Shown piece after piece: positions 1 to 8,588 of a stretch of 64,000 nucleotides of DNA. The notes under the pieces were generated by a model that made no database searches, was not told the DNA's origin, and saw nothing but the letters and a program-made list of their open reading frames with translations. This DNA comes from a virus. The number at the start of each line of letters is the position of its first letter. Positions within the stretch are counted from its first letter, which is position 1. The stretch lies in IMG/VR virus record IMGVR_UViG_3300045136_000892. One strand, 5' to 3'. The position numbers and the translations under genes were made by a program.

Positions 1-439
1 CGAGTAGCGCTTCTTTCTCGCGCAAATAGGCCTTGGCAAAAGCCTTATCGTGCTCCACGATGGACCCCGTGTTGTCGATCAGGTCGGCCAGCTTGATCGT
101 AGCGCCGTCCGGCGACGATCGGGCCAGATGTTCCCTATCCAGCCGCTTCCTCACCTCGCGGCTCCCATCCTCAAGCCGGGACACATCGGTCACCTCGATC
201 ACGAGCAGAGTCACCCTTTCGCCGAAGACGTCCTGAAGCTCGGCCGGCGTCACTTCTGTGTCCTCCAGCACGTCGTGCAGAGCGGCGGCAGCGATCACGG
301 CAGGGTAACTGATGTACTCGGCAACGATGGAGGCGACGTTCCGGCAGTGGTTGGCATACGGCTCGCCGGTGTATTTCCGCTTCTGCTGCCGATGGGCACA
401 CTTGGCGAAGCCGAGGGCCAGAGTCGGCAGGTCTGTCAT
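1..439 (-). CDS. HD-domain RelA/SpoT-type hydrolase (small alarmone hydrolase/Mesh1-like), runs off the left edge
   Basis: Not in the ORF track. Manual translation from ATG 439 (ATGA overlap with the rtcB stop): MTDLPTLALGFAKCAHRQQKRKYTGEPYANHC...AAALHDVLEDT...IKLADLIDN. Contains the AHxxQxRK, PY, HDxxED and KLAD motifs. Confidence 0.85.
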   Translation of the reverse strand, partial: MTDLPTLALGFAKCAHRQQKRKYTGEPYANHCRNVASIVAEYISYPAVIAAAALHDVLEDTEVTPAELQDVFGERVTLLVIEVTDVSRLEDGSREVRKRLDREHLARSSPDGATIKLADLIDNTGSIVEHDKAFAKAYLREKEALL

Positions 440-1677
440 CCCTTCACGCATAGCACCTGCTTCAGCTCATAAGCGATTTCCACCAGATCCTGCTGCGCCG
501 CCATGACCGCATCGATCGGCTTGTAGGCCGCCGGGCTCTCGTCCAGGACCCCTTCGTCCTTTCGGCACTCGACACCAGCAGTCGCCTTTGCGTGGTCTTC
601 GAGGCTGACGCGTTTGCTGGCCTCGCCCCGGCTCATCACCCGTCCGGCGCCGTGCGAGCAGCTGCAGAATGATTCCTGGTTGCCCTTGCCCCGCACGATG
701 AACGACCGGGCACCCATCGAGCCGGGGATGATCCCCAGATCGCCTTGGCGGGCACGGACGGCCCCCTTGCGGGTGAGCCAGACGTTCTTGCCATAGTGCT
801 GCTCGCGGGCCACGTAGTTGTGGTGGCAGTTCACCGCAACCTCGTCCGGGCGGCCGACCCGGCCGGGGAAGTGCCGCTCCAGCACCCTGAGCACCGCCCG
901 CATCATCACCTCGCGGTTCGCCCGGGCGAAGTCCTGCGCCCAGGTCAGGGCCTCGACGTAGTCGTCGAAAAGGTCTGACCCTTCCGGAATGTAGGCCAGG
1001 TCGGCGTCCGGCAGGTTGACGAACCAGCGGCGCATCTCCGCCTTGGCCCGCTCGATGAAGTAAATGCCGAACTTGTTCCCGATGCCCCGACTGCCGGAGT
1101 GGAGCATCACCCAGATAGCCCCGTCGGTGTCGAGGCACAGCTCGATGAAGTGGTTTCCGGTGCCGAGCGTGCCGAGGTGGTGCGGAGCGCGTGTTGCGGA
1201 CCGGGCCAGGTCGGGGTGCTTGGCGACGATGGCTTCGAGGCGTTCCTGAAGCGACGGCCCGAAGGCATCACTCTTGAACGCCCACGCGGATTCGTCCGGC
1301 AGATCGCCCCAAGCCCCACGATCGCTCGCCCCGCCGTTGTCGGTGCGACCGTGCGGCACCGCCGCCTCGATGTCGGAGCGGATCTCGAACAGGTTGTCGG
1401 GCAGGTCCTCAGCCCGAAGTCCGGTCCGAACGGCCATCATGCCGCAACCGATATCCACGCCCACAGCCGCCGGAATGATCGCCCCGACTGTGGGGATGAC
1501 CGAGCCGACGGTGGCCCCCATGCCCCAGTGGACGTCAGGCATGACCGCGACATGGTGATGGATGAAGGGCATCCGGGCGACGTTGCGGAGCTGGTCGACG
1601 GCTTTCTGGTCGAGAGGTACGCCTTCGGTCCAGCCGTAGATCGGAACGGCTTCCTTGCCGAGGAACTGCCTACTCAT
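436..1677 (-). CDS. rtcB: RtcB RNA 3'-phosphate/5'-OH ligase
   Basis: Motifs MPDVH, GVDIGCG, GTLGTGNHFIE, HSGSRG, HHN, GSMG, HGAGR, DESPAAYK. Start placed at ATG 1677, which overlaps the upstream stop. Confidence 0.96.
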   Translation of the reverse strand: MSRQFLGKEAVPIYGWTEGVPLDQKAVDQLRNVARMPFIHHHVAVMPDVHWGMGATVGSVIPTVGAIIPAAVGVDIGCGMMAVRTGLRAEDLPDNLFEIRSDIEAAVPHGRTDNGGASDRGAWGDLPDESAWAFKSDAFGPSLQERLEAIVAKHPDLARSATRAPHHLGTLGTGNHFIELCLDTDGAIWVMLHSGSRGIGNKFGIYFIERAKAEMRRWFVNLPDADLAYIPEGSDLFDDYVEALTWAQDFARANREVMMRAVLRVLERHFPGRVGRPDEVAVNCHHNYVAREQHYGKNVWLTRKGAVRARQGDLGIIPGSMGARSFIVRGKGNQESFCSCSHGAGRVMSRGEASKRVSLEDHAKATAGVECRKDEGVLDESPAAYKPIDAVMAAQQDLVEIAYELKQVLCVKG

Positions 1678-2968
1678 TGGCAGATTCAAACTTCACGATG
1701 TAGTCGAGGACCTTGTTCGACCAGCCGTCGATGTGGACCCACTGGCCGTAGCCGACGCCATTCTTGTTGCTCGCGACGTTGATCAGGTAGCCCTTCATCT
1801 GCGGTACCGGGTCGTGGCTCTGCTCGTCGGTGATGACGATCAGCCGATCCCGAGCCGGCAGCGAGCGGACCGCCTTACCCAGTTCCGTCCCGCCGTGCGG
1901 CTGAGCACCAGTGATCGCATCCCGAAGGGCAAACCCACGCCGTCCCGGCACCTCGACCAGGCTGTTGGAGAAGGTGAAGACCCGCAGGTCGGAAAACATC
2001 TCCCGGCCGATCATCGCCAGCGAGCAGGCCACATCCATCCGGTTCAGCTCGGACTTGGAGGACAGCGCGGAGTCCATCGATCCCGACACGTCCACCAGGA
2101 TGATCGTCTTGCCGCCCAGCTTCTCGCGGCCCGCGAAGCACTCGAAGAACTTGGCCTCCAGCTCAGGCTCGAACTGGGGGTTGTGCCGCGCCGAGGCGAT
2201 GAAGTTGATCGGTAGGAGTCGACCGGCCTTCACGTCGCGCAGGCCTTCGCGGATCGCCTGGTCCTCCACGCCCGCCTTCGTCATATTGCGGACGTTGCGG
2301 AGCATGGCGAGTCCGCCAAGCTTGCCCTCGGAGAGTAGACGAGACCACGAGGCCTTCTTGTCACCACCCTTCGACAGCTCGACCTCCCAGGTATCCGGAG
2401 TAGCCAGCTCGCCTTTGACGAGCTTGCGCCAAAGCTCGGCCTGTTCGAGATTGGCCGGCTTGGGGCGGGTGATCCGCAGGGCGTCGCGCAGTTTGACCGC
2501 CTTCTGACCTCCGTTGTACTTGGCTAGCTGGTACTCGTCGAACTTGCGGAAGGAGTCGCCCAGGCCGCGCTTGACCTGCTTGGCCAGCGGTTCGTCCTTG
2601 TTAGCCTTCCAATAGATTGACAGGAACTCGGTGATATCGTCCGGGCGGAGGATGACGCGGGGAAAGAGCCCCTTGGCCTGCGCACGGCCTTCCTTGGTCC
2701 GCATCAGCTCACGGGCGAGCAGGAGCGGGACGTGGCGGAGGCGCATGTCCTCCTTCGCCTGGACGGCGACGCGGGCGACATCCTCGGCAGGCACGAGCTT
2801 CACCAGCTCGGCGATCCGCTGGCCGATGGTCTGGCCGTCCTCGTAGAACTCCGACTCCCAGAGCAGGCAGGACATGACGGAGCGTTCGAGTTGAGCGAGC
2901 GCGTTGATACGGGCAGCCGGAGCGCCTTCGTGGGTGAACTCCTTGCGGATTCGGTTCAGGGTAGCCAT
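1670..2968 (-). CDS. rsr: Ro60/TROVE-domain RNA-binding protein with C-terminal vWA domain
   Basis: N-terminal THEGA, FDEYQLAKY, TWEVELS, AMLRN; vWA MIDAS DVSGSM, GGT and ITDEQ. Lies between rtcB and the Y RNAs. Confidence 0.93.
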   Translation of the reverse strand: MATLNRIRKEFTHEGAPAARINALAQLERSVMSCLLWESEFYEDGQTIGQRIAELVKLVPAEDVARVAVQAKEDMRLRHVPLLLARELMRTKEGRAQAKGLFPRVILRPDDITEFLSIYWKANKDEPLAKQVKRGLGDSFRKFDEYQLAKYNGGQKAVKLRDALRITRPKPANLEQAELWRKLVKGELATPDTWEVELSKGGDKKASWSRLLSEGKLGGLAMLRNVRNMTKAGVEDQAIREGLRDVKAGRLLPINFIASARHNPQFEPELEAKFFECFAGREKLGGKTIILVDVSGSMDSALSSKSELNRMDVACSLAMIGREMFSDLRVFTFSNSLVEVPGRRGFALRDAITGAQPHGGTELGKAVRSLPARDRLIVITDEQSHDPVPQMKGYLINVASNKNGVGYGQWVHIDGWSNKVLDYIVKFESANE

Positions 2969-2989: not shown

Positions 2990-3116
2990 GGGCGGGGAAG
3001 ATTCGGAGAGGGACGAAACTGAGCTACTGAACCTTGCGGCCCAGGCGGGGATCGAACCCGCGACCTCCGGCGAACCGGCGCTCTATCCAAAGTATCCCTG
3101 TCCTGCACCACCGCCC
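2990..3116 (-). ncRNA. Y RNA unit 4 (closest to rsr); tRNA-like module opened in the D-loop
   Basis: Terminal stem GGGCGGUGGUGCAGGACAGGGAUACUU...UCCCUCUCCGAAUCUUCCCCGCCC. Inside: GAGC, CCGG-UUCG-CCGG, AGGUC, T-arm GCGGG-UUCGAUC-CCCGC, acceptor stem closed by GCAA, UA-GCUC. Confidence 0.85.
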
Positions 3117-3128
3117 TGTTGCGGAAAC

Positions 3129-3258
3129 CGTGCGGGGAAGAAACGACAAAGGTACAAAGCGTCCTAACCATTAGACGACGGCCCCGAAGGACCGGCGGGA
3201 TTCGAACCCGCATCTCTCTCGTGGAAAGAGAAGTAACCCTTGCCTGCACCACCGCACG
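3129..3258 (-). ncRNA. Y RNA unit 3, YrlA-like; permuted tRNA with a UCC anticodon loop
   Basis: Same terminal scaffold. CUC-UUUCCAC-GAGAG, T-arm GCGGG-UUCGAAU-CCCGC, acceptor CGGUCC-UUCG-GGGCCG, D-arm GUCU-AAUGGUUA-GGAC. Confidence 0.88.
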
Positions 3259-3269
3259 ATGGTTCAAGA

Positions 3270-3403
3270 GGAGGGGGAAGAGACGATAAAGGCACGTACG
3301 TGCTCTACCAGCTGAGCTACCGGCAGGTCGATCTGCCGGACGGGACTCGAACCCGCGACCACGCGATTACAAGTCGAAGTAACCCTTATCTGCACCACCC
3401 TCC
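3270..3403 (-). ncRNA. Y RNA unit 2, YrlA-like; permuted tRNA with a UGU anticodon loop
   Basis: Same scaffold. CGA-CUUGUAA-UCGCG, UGGUC, T-arm GCGGG-UUCGAGU-CCCGU, acceptor CCGGCAG-AUCGAC-CUGCCGG, D-arm GCUC-AGCUGGUA-GAGC. Confidence 0.88.
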
Positions 3404-3412
3404 AAAACTTAA

Positions 3413-3474
3413 GAGCCGGGAAGATCGTCGAAGGTTCGCTTTCCAATAAGTAGCCCTCGACTGCACCACGGCCC
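3413..3474 (-). ncRNA. Y RNA unit 1; minimal scaffold with no tRNA module
   Basis: GCCGUGGUGCAGUCGAGGGCUACUU-short loop-CCUUCGACGAUCUUCCCGGC. Shares the GUGGUGCAG, AGGGNUACUU and UCUUCCC motifs with the other three units. Confidence 0.75.
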
Positions 3475-6306: not shown

Positions 6307-6514
6307 CGGGGCGGGGTTGCGGCCAAGTGGGCGGGGGCGAGCGGCGGGGGAAGCTGTGCGCGTGGAAGTGGGTGGAGGGGGCGGGGAGAGGTATGGGGTG
6401 GGGAAGTGAAGGGCGGATATTTTTAAAATATTTCAACACCATAGCGAGTTTCTAGCGCTATGCTTAAAAATCAGTTGCTTAACATTCCGAAGACGACTAC
6501 TTTATCCTTAGGCG

Positions 6515-6604
6515 TGCCCGTGATCGGACTCGAACCAACATACCCGCGTGAGCTAAGGTGCCAGGATGACAGCCTGGTGCGTCTACCAATTCCGCCACAC
6601 GGGC
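6515..6604 (-). tRNA. Atypical class II tRNA: Leu-type body with GUC (Asp) anticodon; CCA not encoded
   Basis: GCCCGUG acceptor/CACGGGC-A73; D-arm GGCGGAAUUGGUAGACGC; CCAGG-CU-GUC-AU-CCUGG; ~21-nt variable arm; GUUGG-UUCGAGU-CCGAU. Confidence 0.88.
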
Positions 6605-7361: not shown

Positions 7362-7500
7362 GGGGCTTGATAACCCCTTGGTTAGCGGTTTTGTACAGCC
7401 GTGATTTGTACTCCTCGCTTACGGCGGGGAGGCGTGCGCGCATGTTCAGGCGCGAGCTAAAGGCGCACGCGACCTTCTAACCAAGGTTTATCAACTCCCC
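7362..7500 (+). ncRNA. Structured multibranch RNA or 5' leader
   Basis: Closing stem GGGGCTTGATAACCCCTTGGTTAG/CTAACCAAGGTTTATCAACTCCCC encloses three hairpins: GTACA/TGTAC, CTCCTCGC/GCGGGGAG, GCGTGCGC/GCGCACGC. Confidence 0.65.
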
Positions 7501-7519
7501 GTCACCAGTGGGGATTGTT

Positions 7520-7631: not shown

Positions 7632-8588
7632 TCAAGCCACCATCCACCTCTGGCTATACCCCTTCCACTGCCGCGACACAGGCGCAGCCAGGGCGGCGCC
7701 CACCAGCATCAGATACTGCTCGCCATTGCTCACCCGGCGGTTATCCTCGCGCCATGCCATCTCCGCGGCGTACAGGCCGAGATACGGCCCTGCAATGTGG
7801 TGATGCGTGCCGACCTCGGCCCGGCGCAGGCGGCTGAAATAGCTCTCTGCTTGATTGGTGCAGGCTCCGTTCTCGCTATAGGCCCATTTGTGGTTCACCC
7901 GCTTCGTCAGATATTTCGCGTGCAGCGCATCCCAAGCGGGCGCTTCATCGGCGTGGATCACCGAGCCAGCGGCCACATGCTTCTGCACCAGGGGCACGGC
8001 CTCATCCTCCGAGCGGAACACGAAGGGTAGCGTCCGGCCCTTGCGCTCGCGCATGACGACGACGACCTGGCGCTTGCCCGTTTGGTTTGCCGCCAGGCGG
8101 CGGTCCTTGCGGTCTTCCTTGCGGTTCTCCGGCTTCACATGCCCGCCGAAATAGCCGCCGTCCACCTCGACCTCCCCCGATAGCTGACACTCGGCACGCA
8201 TCGCCTCGCGGAGTTTGTGGGAGAGCACGAAGGCAGTCCGGTACTGGACGCCCAGGTCGCGGGATAGCTGCAGGGCGCTAATGCCCTTGGCCGCGTTCGT
8301 GAACAGGGCGATGGCCACCAGGATCTCGCGGATCGCCAGCTTGCGGGAGGCGAAGATCGTCCCCGAGGTCACGCTGAACTGGTGGCTGCATGCCTTGCAC
8401 TTCCAGAGCGCCCGCGTCGTGTAGGTGTAGAGGGCGGCGCAGCGGCAGCGGGGGCAGTAGGGCTTGCCGCCCGTATCGGCCCAGCGGATGGCCTGGAACG
8501 CCTCGGCGGCCTGCTCGTCCGTCATGGCCATGATCGCCCTCAGAGAGAGGGACCGGGCGGCGGAGGAGAGGAGGAAGTGCTGGGTCAT
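7632..8588 (-). CDS. IS1595-family DDE transposase
   Basis: Zn ribbon CPRC...CKAC, FSVTSGTIF, HTH, GEVEVDGGYFGG, IHADE, VNH, TNQAESYF, LYAAEMAWRE. Confidence 0.95.
   Translation of the reverse strand: MTQHFLLSSAARSLSLRAIMAMTDEQAAEAFQAIRWADTGGKPYCPRCRCAALYTYTTRALWKCKACSHQFSVTSGTIFASRKLAIREILVAIALFTNAAKGISALQLSRDLGVQYRTAFVLSHKLREAMRAECQLSGEVEVDGGYFGGHVKPENRKEDRKDRRLAANQTGKRQVVVVMRERKGRTLPFVFRSEDEAVPLVQKHVAAGSVIHADEAPAWDALHAKYLTKRVNHKWAYSENGACTNQAESYFSRLRRAEVGTHHHIAGPYLGLYAAEMAWREDNRRVSNGEQYLMLVGAALAAPVSRQWKGYSQRWMVA

What the first reader, a model, noticed from the sequence alone, without database searches (positions are those of the whole stretch)
2990..3474. Array of four Y RNAs built on one scaffold with interchangeable tRNA modules
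Seen: four tandem minus-strand units share a terminal helix (5' GUGGUGCAG..AGGGNUACUU / 3' CCU..CG..UCUUCCC). Directly after the conserved UACUU, one unit has only a short loop and three carry circularly permuted tRNAs whose acceptor stems are closed by AUCGAC, UUCG or GCAA loops. Known: bacterial Ro60 (Rsr) genes sit beside Y RNAs, and YrlA RNAs mimic tRNA. Inference: this is a cassette-like repertoire in which one Ro60 loads different tRNA-mimic payloads. A four-member array mixing permutation topologies goes beyond the one or two Y RNAs I know from model loci.
Basis: partly seen in the sequence, partly recalled or inferred. Interest (0 to 1): 0.9.

Follow-up and report, generated by a model that had tools for sequence, protein, structure and literature searches.

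The report
Four-gene Y RNA array beside Ro60
Just upstream of a bacterial Ro60 (Rsr) and RtcB RNA-repair operon lie four small-RNA genes that share one Ro60-type "handle" but carry different heads, three of them rearranged tRNA look-alikes. One head is rearranged in a way I could not find described, and such arrays turn out to be common beside Ro60 genes in many bacteria and phages.

Summary
Window 2990-3472 (minus strand) holds four tandem units with one conserved scaffold. They lie directly upstream of, and co-oriented with, rsr (TROVE/Ro60) and rtcB.

- **Unit 1:** a short hairpin, YrlB-like.
- **Units 2 and 3:** YrlA-type permuted tRNA mimics. ARAGORN calls them as full cloverleaves once they are de-permuted.
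- **Unit 4:** a tRNA mimic opened in the D-loop instead, with both the anticodon-like and acceptor stems capped by tetraloops.

Both long-unit folds are strongly supported by covariation (96-98% of cells paired, against 37-52% in slid controls). Rfam YrlA covers only the tRNA-like cores, at scores below its threshold.

The host is an Isosphaeraceae planctomycete, and relatives carry 2-5 units. My covariance models show arrays of 3-6 units beside rsr in many phyla and phages, so four units is typical rather than exceptional. The D-loop-permuted class recurs next to rsr in Planctomycetota, Acidobacteriota and one viral contig. The same head sits on different scaffolds in different genomes, so the modules are exchanged.

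Expression and Ro60 binding are untested here. This scan has already noted handle-sharing RNA arrays beside Ro60-like genes on other (phage) DNA.

Verdict: a real Y RNA array, and a new variant of a known kind.

The parts
3415..3472 (-). Unit 1: short Y RNA (scaffold plus small apical loop), YrlB-like. Its 3' half contains the conserved GAACCT-N17-TCT promoter-like motif.
   Evidence: Scaffold pattern match. R1 scores it 68.1 bits at full length, but it was one of the seed sequences. Helix 2 covaries among 11 short units. Identical unit in L004.
3270..3403 (-). Unit 2: YrlA-type Y RNA. The scaffold joins a complete tRNA-like body at anticodon-stem position 28/29. It has a 7-bp acceptor stem closed by AUCGAC and a 7-nt anticodon-like loop CUUGUAA.
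   Evidence: Rfam YrlA 43.1 bits over model positions 24-84. R2 142.5 bits; it is a seed. Structure 98% paired across 19 homologues. ARAGORN calls tRNA-Thr(tgt) after de-permutation.
3130..3257 (-). Unit 3: YrlA-type Y RNA with a different body. It has a GUCUAAUGGUUAGGAC D arm, a 6-bp acceptor stem closed by UUCG, and the loop UUUCCAC.
   Evidence: Rfam YrlA 27.1 bits. R2 117.3 bits; it is a seed. Included in A3. ARAGORN calls tRNA-Gly(tcc) after de-permutation.
2990..3116 (-). Unit 4: D-loop-permuted tRNA-mimic Y RNA ('type P'). Order along the RNA: scaffold, then GGAUA + GAGC, a CCGG-UUCG-CCGG hairpin, the T arm, a 7-bp acceptor stem closed by GCAA, then UA-GCUC-AGUU and the scaffold again.
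   Evidence: Rfam YrlA only 20.3 bits. R3 148 bits (it is a seed) against R2 62.8 bits. Structure 96-97% paired with 9-20 compensatory pairs. Homologues in Acidobacteriota and a viral contig.
3412..3437 (-). ECF-sigma-like promoter motif GAACCT-N17-TCT. It ends about 10 nt before the 5' end of unit 2.
   Evidence: Found at a fixed distance upstream of the first long unit in 16 of 17 planctomycete loci. Consensus resemblance only; not tested.
1670..2968 (-). rsr: Ro60 orthologue (TROVE plus vWA), 432 aa. Its start codon lies 22 nt after unit 4.
   Evidence: Pfam TROVE, E 4.7e-18. The best solved relative is Thermus phage phiLo Ro60 (9KOP/9L5Y), E 1.4e-23. 93% aa identity to Tundrisphaera lichenicola.
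436..1689 (-). rtcB RNA ligase, overlapping the end of rsr.
   Evidence: Pfam RtcB, E 1.7e-132. NCBIfam RtcB family hits.
2..451 (-). Small HD-domain (SpoT/Mesh1-like hydrolase) gene downstream of rtcB, cut by the window edge.
   Evidence: Pfam HD_4, E 1.2e-16. NCBIfam spoT_relA N-terminal region.

Best explanation
The region encodes four tandem bacterial Y RNA genes that belong to an rsr-rtcB RNA-repair operon of an Isosphaeraceae planctomycete.

Each RNA has two parts. The first is a common handle: a terminal helix with a bulged U, a UGCA//..UCUU internal loop, a G-rich helix and a UACUU junction. This is the local version of the Ro60/Rsr-binding stem of YrlA/YrlB RNAs. The second part is a variable head.
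- Unit 1 has a short loop and is YrlB-like.
- Units 2 and 3 have full L-shaped tRNA mimics. They are joined to the handle through the anticodon stem and are YrlA-like.
- Unit 4 has a tRNA mimic joined to the handle through its D-loop, with the anticodon-like and acceptor stems both capped by tetraloops.

The most likely mechanism is as follows; every step in it is inferred. The array is co-transcribed with rsr, at least units 2-4, from a conserved ECF-sigma-like promoter. It is then cut at the short conserved spacers into separate RNAs. Each RNA docks on the single Rsr ring through the handle. The head then either recruits or blocks a different tRNA-recognising partner, or tethers PNPase as in the known Ro60-Y RNA-PNPase complex. 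One Ro60 would thus be diversified into several RNPs for stress-induced RNA decay or repair.

Shown here: the sequence anatomy, the conservation, the covariation-supported folds, strict linkage and co-orientation with rsr, and exchange of heads between handles.

Not shown: transcription, processing, Rsr binding and partner choice.
For: 1. Four exact scaffold matches occur only here, with 0 expected by chance, and nowhere else in the 143-kb record.
2. rsr (TROVE/vWA) and rtcB follow directly on the same strand.
3. Rfam YrlA aligns the T-acceptor-D core of units 2-4. The Rfam consensus 5' end (stem, AUGC loop, GGG helix, CUA) has the same architecture as this handle.
4. Covariation. The short-unit scaffold has 6 of 13 pairs compensatory. 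The canonical long units are 98.0% paired with 22 of 38 pairs compensatory, against 38-48% paired in slid controls. Type P is 95.9% and 96.8% paired with 9 and 20 compensatory pairs, against 39-57% in slid controls.
5. ARAGORN of 19 de-permuted heads as tRNAs. Orthologous bodies nevertheless carry different 'anticodons' (UGU, AUU, GUU, UCC, AGA and others), while U33 is kept in 18 of 19.
6. Linkage. All 157 R2 hits in 84 sources lie on the rsr strand. So do all 66 R1 hits and all 125 R2 hits in 80 IMG/VR rsr loci, and nearly all are upstream of rsr. In four of five complete planctomycete genomes, full-length hits occur only at the rsr locus.
7. The same CCGGCAG/AUCGAC head sits on handle A in the window, L004, L005 and L008, but on handle B in L095, L103 and L015.
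8. Literature. M. smegmatis YrlA and YrlB lie upstream of rsr and are processed from one precursor; every studied species has at least two Y RNAs (PMC4201824). The closest solved homologue, phiLo Ro60, binds two Y-like RNAs encoded just upstream of it and forms a complex with PNPase (PMC12135203).
Against: - There are no expression data.
- No unit reaches Rfam's YrlA gathering score. The published 5' motif GNCGAAN0-1G is replaced here by GGUGCAG.
- No sigma-70 promoter or intrinsic terminator was called in the region.
- The D-stem pairing that defines type P never varies in the aligned set, so it is supported by conservation rather than covariation.
- The 3' half of unit 1 coincides with a promoter-like motif. 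That motif is conserved even in genomes that lack unit 1's 5' half, so unit 1 may matter more as DNA than as RNA.
Confidence: 0.85

Rival explanations
1. The array is mainly a cis-acting structured leader of the rsr-rtcB mRNA. For example, Rsr could bind its own 5' UTR handles to autoregulate translation or stability, rather than the array being a source of stable trans-acting RNAs.
For: Unit 4 ends 22 nt before the rsr start codon, and no terminator is called between the array and rsr. A single conserved promoter-like motif precedes units 2-4.
Against: In M. smegmatis the equivalent upstream RNAs are processed from the precursor and accumulate bound to Rsr (PMC4201824). The same units lie downstream of rsr in some loci, such as L078. 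Each unit has its own closing helix, and the spacers are conserved. This reading does not exclude the best explanation.
Confidence: 0.07
2. Units 2-4 are circularly permuted tRNA genes. Cleavage plus RtcB ligation would mature them into working tRNAs, as happens with permuted pre-tRNAs of red algae and some archaea.
For: ARAGORN reads the de-permuted heads as complete cloverleaves. An RtcB ligase gene is in the operon. M. smegmatis YrlA is cut by RNase P and receives CCA (PMC4201824).
Against: Orthologous heads with the same acceptor, D and T arms carry unrelated 'anticodons' in different genomes, and one has a 6-nt loop. Unit 4 and all other type P units have a tetraloop in place of the anticodon loop. 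The acceptor stems of units 3 and 4 are closed by stable UUCG and GCAA tetraloops. The handle is far more conserved than an intron would need to be.
Confidence: 0.04
3. The units are decaying tRNA-derived repeats or integration scars on a mobile element, with no function of their own.
For: The record is classed as a provirus by IMG/VR. An IS1595 transposase lies about 4 kb away. The flanks of the array-rsr-rtcB block differ from those in the nearest relative.
Against: Compensatory changes maintain every helix across genera and phyla. The heads have no close copy among tRNA genes of three related genomes. The linkage to rsr is strict across phyla and phages.
Confidence: 0.02

Closest known systems
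YrlA (Y RNA-like A) of Salmonella Typhimurium, M. smegmatis and mycobacteriophages; Rfam RF02553; Chen et al. 2014 (PMC4201824); Wang et al. 2018 (bioRxiv 10.1101/312249)
   Same: Encoded next to rsr and on the same strand. It has an Rsr-binding stem plus a circularly permuted tRNA-like domain in the order T arm, closed acceptor stem, D arm, often with an extra 'V' hairpin 5' of the T arm. Units 2 and 3 have exactly this plan.
   Different: The handle sequence differs: GGUGCAG...UACUU in place of the GNCGAAN0-1G motif. Scores are below Rfam's threshold (43 and 27 bits against 69). The extra hairpin here is a covarying 7-nt, U33-containing anticodon-like loop. There are two such units plus two others in one array.
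YrlB (Salmonella, M. smegmatis) and Yrn2 (D. radiodurans): the short second Y RNAs
   Same: A simple long hairpin that shares the Rsr-binding end with the tRNA-like Y RNA of the same locus. Unit 1 has this plan.
   Different: The published examples have a small pyrimidine-rich loop, and M. smegmatis YrlB has a T arm. Unit 1 has neither, and it overlaps a promoter-like motif.
Yrn1 of Deinococcus radiodurans
   Same: Chen et al. 2014 report that its T and D elements lie in the opposite order relative to the 5' end compared with YrlA, with an anticodon-arm-like hairpin between them. Unit 4 shares this D, anticodon-like hairpin, T order.
   Different: Unit 4 also keeps a closed 7-bp acceptor stem. 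Its D stem is formed by long-range pairing of two halves that flank the whole body, so the handle enters through the D-loop (between nt 17 and 18). I could not compare sequences directly.
Thermus phage phiLo Ro60 with Yrl1 and Yrl2 (PMC12135203; PDB 9KOP, 9L5Y)
   Same: It is the closest solved homologue of this Rsr. Y-like RNAs encoded immediately upstream bind it and, with PNPase, form a ternary complex.
   Different: It has two stem-bulge-stem RNAs with a CGAA motif. No tRNA-like heads are reported.
Circularly permuted tRNA genes of Cyanidioschyzon merolae and some archaea
   Same: The acceptor stem is closed by a loop and the ends lie elsewhere in the cloverleaf.
   Different: Those genes are matured into decoding tRNAs with fixed identities. 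Here the 'anticodons' drift or are replaced by tetraloops, and the ends are held by a conserved Ro60-type handle.

Membership tests
Bacterial Y RNA (YrlA/YrlB class, Chen et al. 2014) | Encoded within about 4 kb of a TROVE/Ro60 gene, on the same strand | tested here: met
   The array ends 22 nt upstream of rsr on the same strand. The same holds for all model hits in 160+ rsr loci.
Bacterial Y RNA (YrlA/YrlB class, Chen et al. 2014) | 5'/3' ends pair into a bulged stem that carries the Rsr-binding motif (published as GNCGAAN0-1G, resembling GGUCCGA) | tested here: inconclusive
   The bulged terminal stem and internal loop are present and covary. The literal motif is absent: GGUGCAG occupies its place. 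The architecture parallels the Rfam consensus cggCgaAUGCuuggGgaaCUA.
YrlA (Rfam RF02553) | tRNA-like module in the order T arm, closed acceptor stem-loop, D arm | tested here: met
   Met for units 2 and 3. Not met for unit 4, which has a different order, or for unit 1, which has no module.
YrlA (Rfam RF02553) | Score at or above the Rfam gathering threshold (69 bits) | tested here: not met
   43.1, 27.1 and 20.3 bits, with no hit for unit 1. No hit at the gathering score in 20 related loci.
Bacterial Y RNA | Stable RNA bound and stabilised by Rsr | not testable with these tools
This needs RIP-seq or Northern blots.
YrlA | tRNA-type modifications (D, T, pseudouridine); substrate for tRNA enzymes (RNase P, CCA-adding enzyme) | not testable with these tools
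   Indirect only: the T-loop UUCGA, G18G19, U8 and A14 equivalents are present, and units 2 and 4 have 7-bp acceptor stems.
Functional circularly permuted tRNA gene | Conserved anticodon and identity across orthologues | tested here: not met
   Orthologous bodies carry UGU, AUU, GUU, UCC or AGA, or a 6-nt loop. Type P has a tetraloop instead.
Ro60/Rsr protein | TROVE HEAT-repeat ring plus C-terminal vWA domain | tested here: met
   Pfam TROVE E 4.7e-18. The vWA_Ro60 and VWA_2 hits are just below their cut-offs. PDB phiLo Ro60 E 1.4e-23, and human RO60 vWA region E 7e-5.

The most novel reading that the evidence does not exclude
The D-loop-permuted unit ('type P') represents a distinct Y RNA class that I could not find described. 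It is conserved in the rsr-proximal slot in Planctomycetota, Acidobacteriota and at least one virus. It presents the tRNA-shaped body to Ro60 from the elbow side rather than the anticodon side.

More generally, bacterial and phage Ro60 systems would run on recombining 'handle plus head' arrays of up to six RNAs. These include class I-like, class II-like, truncated and D-loop-permuted tRNA mimics. Each would aim the same Ro60 ring at a different tRNA-recognising partner or tRNA-targeting nuclease.
Probability: 0.35. Interest if true: 0.75.

Novelty: new variant of a known kind. Interest (0 to 1): 0.6.

Why it matters
What the tRNA-like head of bacterial Y RNAs is for remains an open question (Chen et al. 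2014; Hughes et al. 2020).

A natural repertoire gives comparative and experimental leverage on that question. Here one Ro60 gene is served by several RNAs with the same handle but different heads. Those heads include a second permutation topology that changes how the tRNA body is oriented relative to Ro60.

The heads can be swapped, deleted or pulled down one by one in culturable planctomycetes to find their partners.

There is also a practical point. Rfam's YrlA model with its current threshold misses these genes, so Y RNA arrays are going unannotated beside Ro60 genes in many bacteria and phages.

Tried and rejected
- **Rfam at gathering threshold:** no YrlA hit in the window or in 20 related loci. 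Only sub-threshold partial hits appeared.
- **ARAGORN on native sequence:** no tRNA called in the array. It calls tRNAs only after de-permutation.
- **Promoter/terminator scan:** nothing called. A possible TTGCGC-N17-TAGGGT upstream of unit 1 is weak, and I do not rely on it.
- **My first regex/complementarity scanner:** it gave many false positives in coding DNA and was dropped.
- **A regex for D-loop-permuted units:** it missed the acidobacterial examples that the covariance model and reading by eye later found.
- **MAFFT alignment of planctomycete plus acidobacterial type P units (A4):** it mis-registered the acceptor stems, so I used the model-guided alignment A5. A5 leans towards the model's structure.
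- **Relatives of the window's own record:** cannot be drawn because it is a virus record. I re-centred on the Tundrisphaera genome.
- **Phylum-wide sample:** only the centre genome itself (Tundrisphaera, G001) had rsr, 1 of 401 genomes searched.
- **Payload BLAST against three related genomes:** no close tRNA-gene source for the heads (also for unit 4). I therefore rejected recent capture of host tRNAs.
- **Literature I could not read (not held):** Burroughs and Aravind 2016, Sim and Wolin 2018, Sim et al. 2020, and the supplementary tables of Chen et al. 2014. I cannot exclude that multi-unit arrays or type P are mentioned there.
- **ECF sigma gene:** none found among the 13 ORFs I scanned within about 5.6 kb of the array.

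Full report
**Observation.**
On the minus strand of window 2990-3472 the pattern GTGGTGCAG-N4-GGG-N-TACTT occurs four times and nowhere else in the window. Shuffles give zero matches.

Each copy is paired with a 3' strand of the form CCUU..CG..UCUUCCC. Together they close:
- a terminal helix of 4-6 bp, a bulged U and a GG/CC step;
- an internal loop, UGCA opposite about 7 nt ending in CUU;
- a second helix.

The units are u1 3415-3472, u2 3270-3403, u3 3130-3257 and u4 2990-3116. After UACUU, u1 has only a short loop. u2, u3 and u4 carry tRNA-like elements whose acceptor stems are closed by AUCGAC, UUCG and GCAA.

**Context.**
Unit 4 ends 22 nt before a 432-aa ORF (1670-2968, minus strand) with a TROVE domain and a vWA-like C-terminus. 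The best solved relative of this protein is the Ro60 of Thermus phage phiLo.

An rtcB ligase gene overlaps its end (436-1689), and a small SpoT/Mesh1-like HD hydrolase gene follows.

The window belongs to a 143-kb record that IMG/VR classes as a provirus. The Rsr protein, however, is 93% identical to that of the Tundrisphaera lichenicola P12 chromosome and 83-88% identical to those of the four closest Singulisphaera-type loci (L005-L008).

The block from promoter through array, rsr and rtcB is 85% identical in DNA to the Tundrisphaera locus, while the flanks differ. rsr was found in 18 of 120 genomes of the order. In an even sample of the phylum, only the centre genome itself had it, 1 of 401 genomes.

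**What the units are.**
Rfam's YrlA model aligns only the T arm, acceptor and D arm core. It scores 43.1 bits on u2, 27.1 on u3 and 20.3 on u4, against a gathering score of 69. It does not hit u1.

u2 and u3 have the YrlA plan plus a small hairpin 5' of the T arm.

Reading the sequence, u2 is a complete cloverleaf:
- acceptor CUGCCGG/CCGGCAG;
- D stem GCUC/GAGC;
- anticodon stem CGCGA/UCGCG;
- loop CUUGUAA;
- T stem GCGGG/CCCGU.

It is broken between positions 28 and 29, and the handle enters at that break. u3 is the same kind of object with a different body.

I aligned 19 such units from 15 sources (the window and 14 related planctomycete loci), giving alignment A3, and scored my hand-drawn structure on it:
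- 98.0% of cells pair;
- 22 of 38 pairs show compensatory changes;
- every one of the seven helices is supported, including the small anticodon-like hairpin (3 of 3 pairs);
- sliding the partners by 1-3 columns drops pairing to 38-48%.

I then joined the two halves of each head in tRNA order. ARAGORN of 19 as tRNAs.

The 'anticodons' differ even among orthologous bodies. The CCGGCAG/AUCGAC body carries UGU, AUU, GUU, UCC, AGA or a 6-nt loop. The loop itself keeps Y32, U33 (18 of 19) and a purine at position 37.

So the loop shape is under selection but the triplet is not. That argues against a decoding role.

**Unit 4 is a different permutation.**
Its order along the RNA is:
1. handle 5' strand;
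2. GGAUA, the 3' half of a D-loop including G18 G19;
3. GAGC, the D-stem 3' strand;
4. a CCGG-UUCG-CCGG hairpin where the anticodon arm would be;
5. GGUC;
6. the T arm;
7. a 7-bp acceptor stem closed by GCAA;
8. UA;
9. GCUC, the D-stem 5' strand;
10. AGUU, the 5' half of the D-loop;
11. handle 3' strand.

AGUU plus GGAUA is exactly an ordinary D-loop cut between nucleotides 17 and 18.

Six planctomycete examples (alignment A2) fit this structure. 95.9% of cells pair and 9 pairs are compensatory, against 40-57% pairing in slid controls.

I built a covariance model from those six (R3). It then picked out the rsr-proximal units of four Acidobacteriota loci (L028, L037, L052, L056) at 68-84 bits, and one IMG/VR contig (L160) at 72.6 bits. 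The best canonical unit scored at most 58.6 bits. Read by eye, these have the same plan and share the core AGAGCGCC..GGAGGU.

On the 11-sequence model-guided alignment (A5), 96.8% of cells pair and 20 of 37 pairs are compensatory. Slid controls give 39-52%.

There is a caveat. The long-range D stem that defines this topology is invariant (GAGC/GCUC) in the aligned set. The only compensatory example I saw is by eye, in L051 (GAGU/ACUC).

In other Isosphaeraceae the same array slot and the same handle (GGGCGG...CCGCCC) hold one of two alternatives. One is a shorter 'hairpin plus T arm' head that aligns with the 5' part of type P, as if the acceptor and D half had been deleted. The other is only a short loop.

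**How common are arrays?**
The planctomycete loci carry 2-5 units:
- L012 has 5;
- L010, L011 (Zavarzinella) and L014 have 4;
- Tundrisphaera has the same 4 as the window.

I built two further models. R1 is a scaffold model from 11 short units. R2 is a full-length model from alignment A3.

All their significant hits lie on the rsr strand and nearly all are just upstream of rsr:
- 157 of 157 R2 hits in 84 sources;
- 66 of 66 R1 hits in 80 viral loci;
- 125 of 125 R2 hits in the same 80 viral loci.

Non-overlapping hits per locus:

| Locus | Units |
|---|---|
| L039 (Acidobacteriota) | 6 |
| L052 | 5 |
| L078 (Chryseobacterium; four of the five units downstream of rsr) | 5 |
| L020, L028, L056, L069 | 4 |
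| Xylella phage Usme | 4 |
| Brevundimonas jumbo phage | 3 |
| Viral contigs L121, L182 | 5 |
| Viral contigs L117, L124, L130, L140, L142, L160, L177, L179 | 4 |

None of the phage units is annotated in the GenBank records.

In four of five complete planctomycete genomes, full-length R2 hits occur only at the rsr locus.

So a four-unit array is typical of a widespread and largely unannotated arrangement. It is not an outlier.

**Modularity.**
I compared handle columns and head columns of A3 separately. The handle of window u3 is 94-96% identical to those of L103_u2 and L015_u2. Its head, however, is close only to L006_u2 (93%).

The heads of L103_u2, L015_u2 and L095_u3 are instead the CCGGCAG/AUCGAC head, 82-95% identical to one another and to the handle-A copies in the window, L004, L005 and L008. 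In the window that head sits on the other handle, u2.

Heads and handles have therefore been re-assorted during evolution.

The heads are not recent copies of host tRNA genes. In three related genomes they match strongly only at the rsr locus. Elsewhere the matches are only 16-43-nt T-arm or D-arm stretches (for u4).

**Regulation (inferred).**
A motif GAACCT-N17-TCT lies at a fixed distance, about 35 nt, upstream of the first long unit in 16 of 17 planctomycete loci. From general knowledge it resembles ECF-sigma promoters, which have the form GGAAC..N16-17..TCT/CGTC.

In the window it lies inside the 3' half of unit 1 (3412-3437). Several relatives keep the motif but have lost the 5' half of unit 1.

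Short inter-unit spacers are conserved across genera (CUUGAACCAUCG, ACGGUUUCCGCAACAG), which suggests processing sites.

In M. smegmatis, YrlA and YrlB are likewise processed from one precursor upstream of rsr (PMC4201824).

**Mechanism and comparison with what is known.**
Published work gives four relevant points:
- Y RNA tethers Rsr to PNPase (PMC4201824; PMC12135203).
- YrlA is an L-shaped tRNA mimic that resembles a permuted tRNA with a closed acceptor stem (bioRxiv 10.1101/312249).
- Hughes et al. 2020 propose that the YrlA head might competitively inhibit an anticodon nuclease (PMC7790460).

The array fits this framework as one Rsr with several alternative partner RNAs. Units 2 and 3 are YrlA-type members in architecture, although they fail Rfam's threshold and lack the literal 5' motif. 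Unit 1 is YrlB-like.

Unit 4 works like a Y RNA but is not a YrlA by arm order. Its nearest published relative in arm order is D. radiodurans Yrn1, from which it differs by keeping a closed acceptor stem and a split D stem.

I found no paper in the searchable library describing more than two YrlA/B-type RNAs per locus, planctomycete Y RNAs, or a D-loop-permuted mimic. Several key reviews and the supplementary tables were not available to me.

Earlier notes of this scan report handle-sharing arrays of 4-12 RNAs beside Ro60-like genes in phages, with other handles. The general theme has therefore been seen before on other DNA.

**Verdict.**
This is a real Y RNA array whose anatomy is well supported. 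Function is inferred by homology of context and architecture.

Novelty lies in three things: the conserved D-loop-permuted class, the demonstrated handle/head re-assortment, and the breadth of multi-unit arrays. The existence of Y RNAs beside Ro60 is not itself new.

Noticed in passing
window 3412-3437 (minus); L004-L015, L094-L108 upstream of the first long unit: A conserved GAACCT-N17-TCT motif (ECF-sigma-like) lies about 35 nt upstream of the first long Y RNA in 16 of 17 planctomycete loci. In the window and in Zavarzinella it lies inside the 3' half of the first short unit. No ECF sigma gene was found among the 13 ORFs scanned within about 5.6 kb.
   Followed up: partly
window 6514-6604 (minus): A 91-nt tRNA with a long variable arm and a class II-type D arm (GUGGCGGAAUUGGUAGACGC) has the anticodon GUC (Asp). 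ARAGORN and Rfam both call it (53.7 bits). This is an odd combination of body and anticodon.
   Followed up: no
window 7632-8588 (minus) and 7423-7511 (plus): An IS1595-family transposase gene. Next to it is a sub-threshold match to sRNA-Xcc1 (30 bits against a gathering score of 53).
   Followed up: no
L030 and L046 (proteobacterial MAGs): Here rsr and its Y RNA units are embedded in arrays of about 20 or more tRNA genes on the same strand.
   Followed up: no
L059 2807-2942, L060 2811-2943, L018 2471-2607, L110 2309-2453: Some Y RNA heads mimic class II tRNAs. They have a GUGGCGGAA..AGACGC D arm and a long variable-arm hairpin before the T arm. Examples come from Acetivibrio, from the uncultured 'Bacterium UASB14' scaffold (L018) and from a Brevundimonas jumbo phage.
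   Followed up: partly
L109 (Xylella phage Usme, LR743523.1) 1828-2435; L110 (Brevundimonas phage Bambus) 1816-2453: Cultured phages carry unannotated arrays of four and three Y RNA units upstream of their Ro60 genes. The Ro60 genes are annotated only as 'hypothetical' or 'RNA-binding protein'.
   Followed up: partly
G003 (Zavarzinella formosa) C6:570983-571112, C9:29590-29868, C2:287189-287302: There are additional full-length matches to the long-unit model away from the rsr locus I fetched. They may mark further Ro60 loci or orphan Y RNAs.
   Followed up: no
window 3258-3269 and 3117-3129; the same spacers in L004-L009 and L092-L103: The spacers between units are conserved across genera (CUUGAACCAUCG; ACGGUUUCCGCAACAG). 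They may be processing signals.
   Followed up: no
L101 1141-1289: In one orthologue of unit 2, the acceptor-stem loop is replaced by a 25-nt insert that contains an extra hairpin.
   Followed up: no
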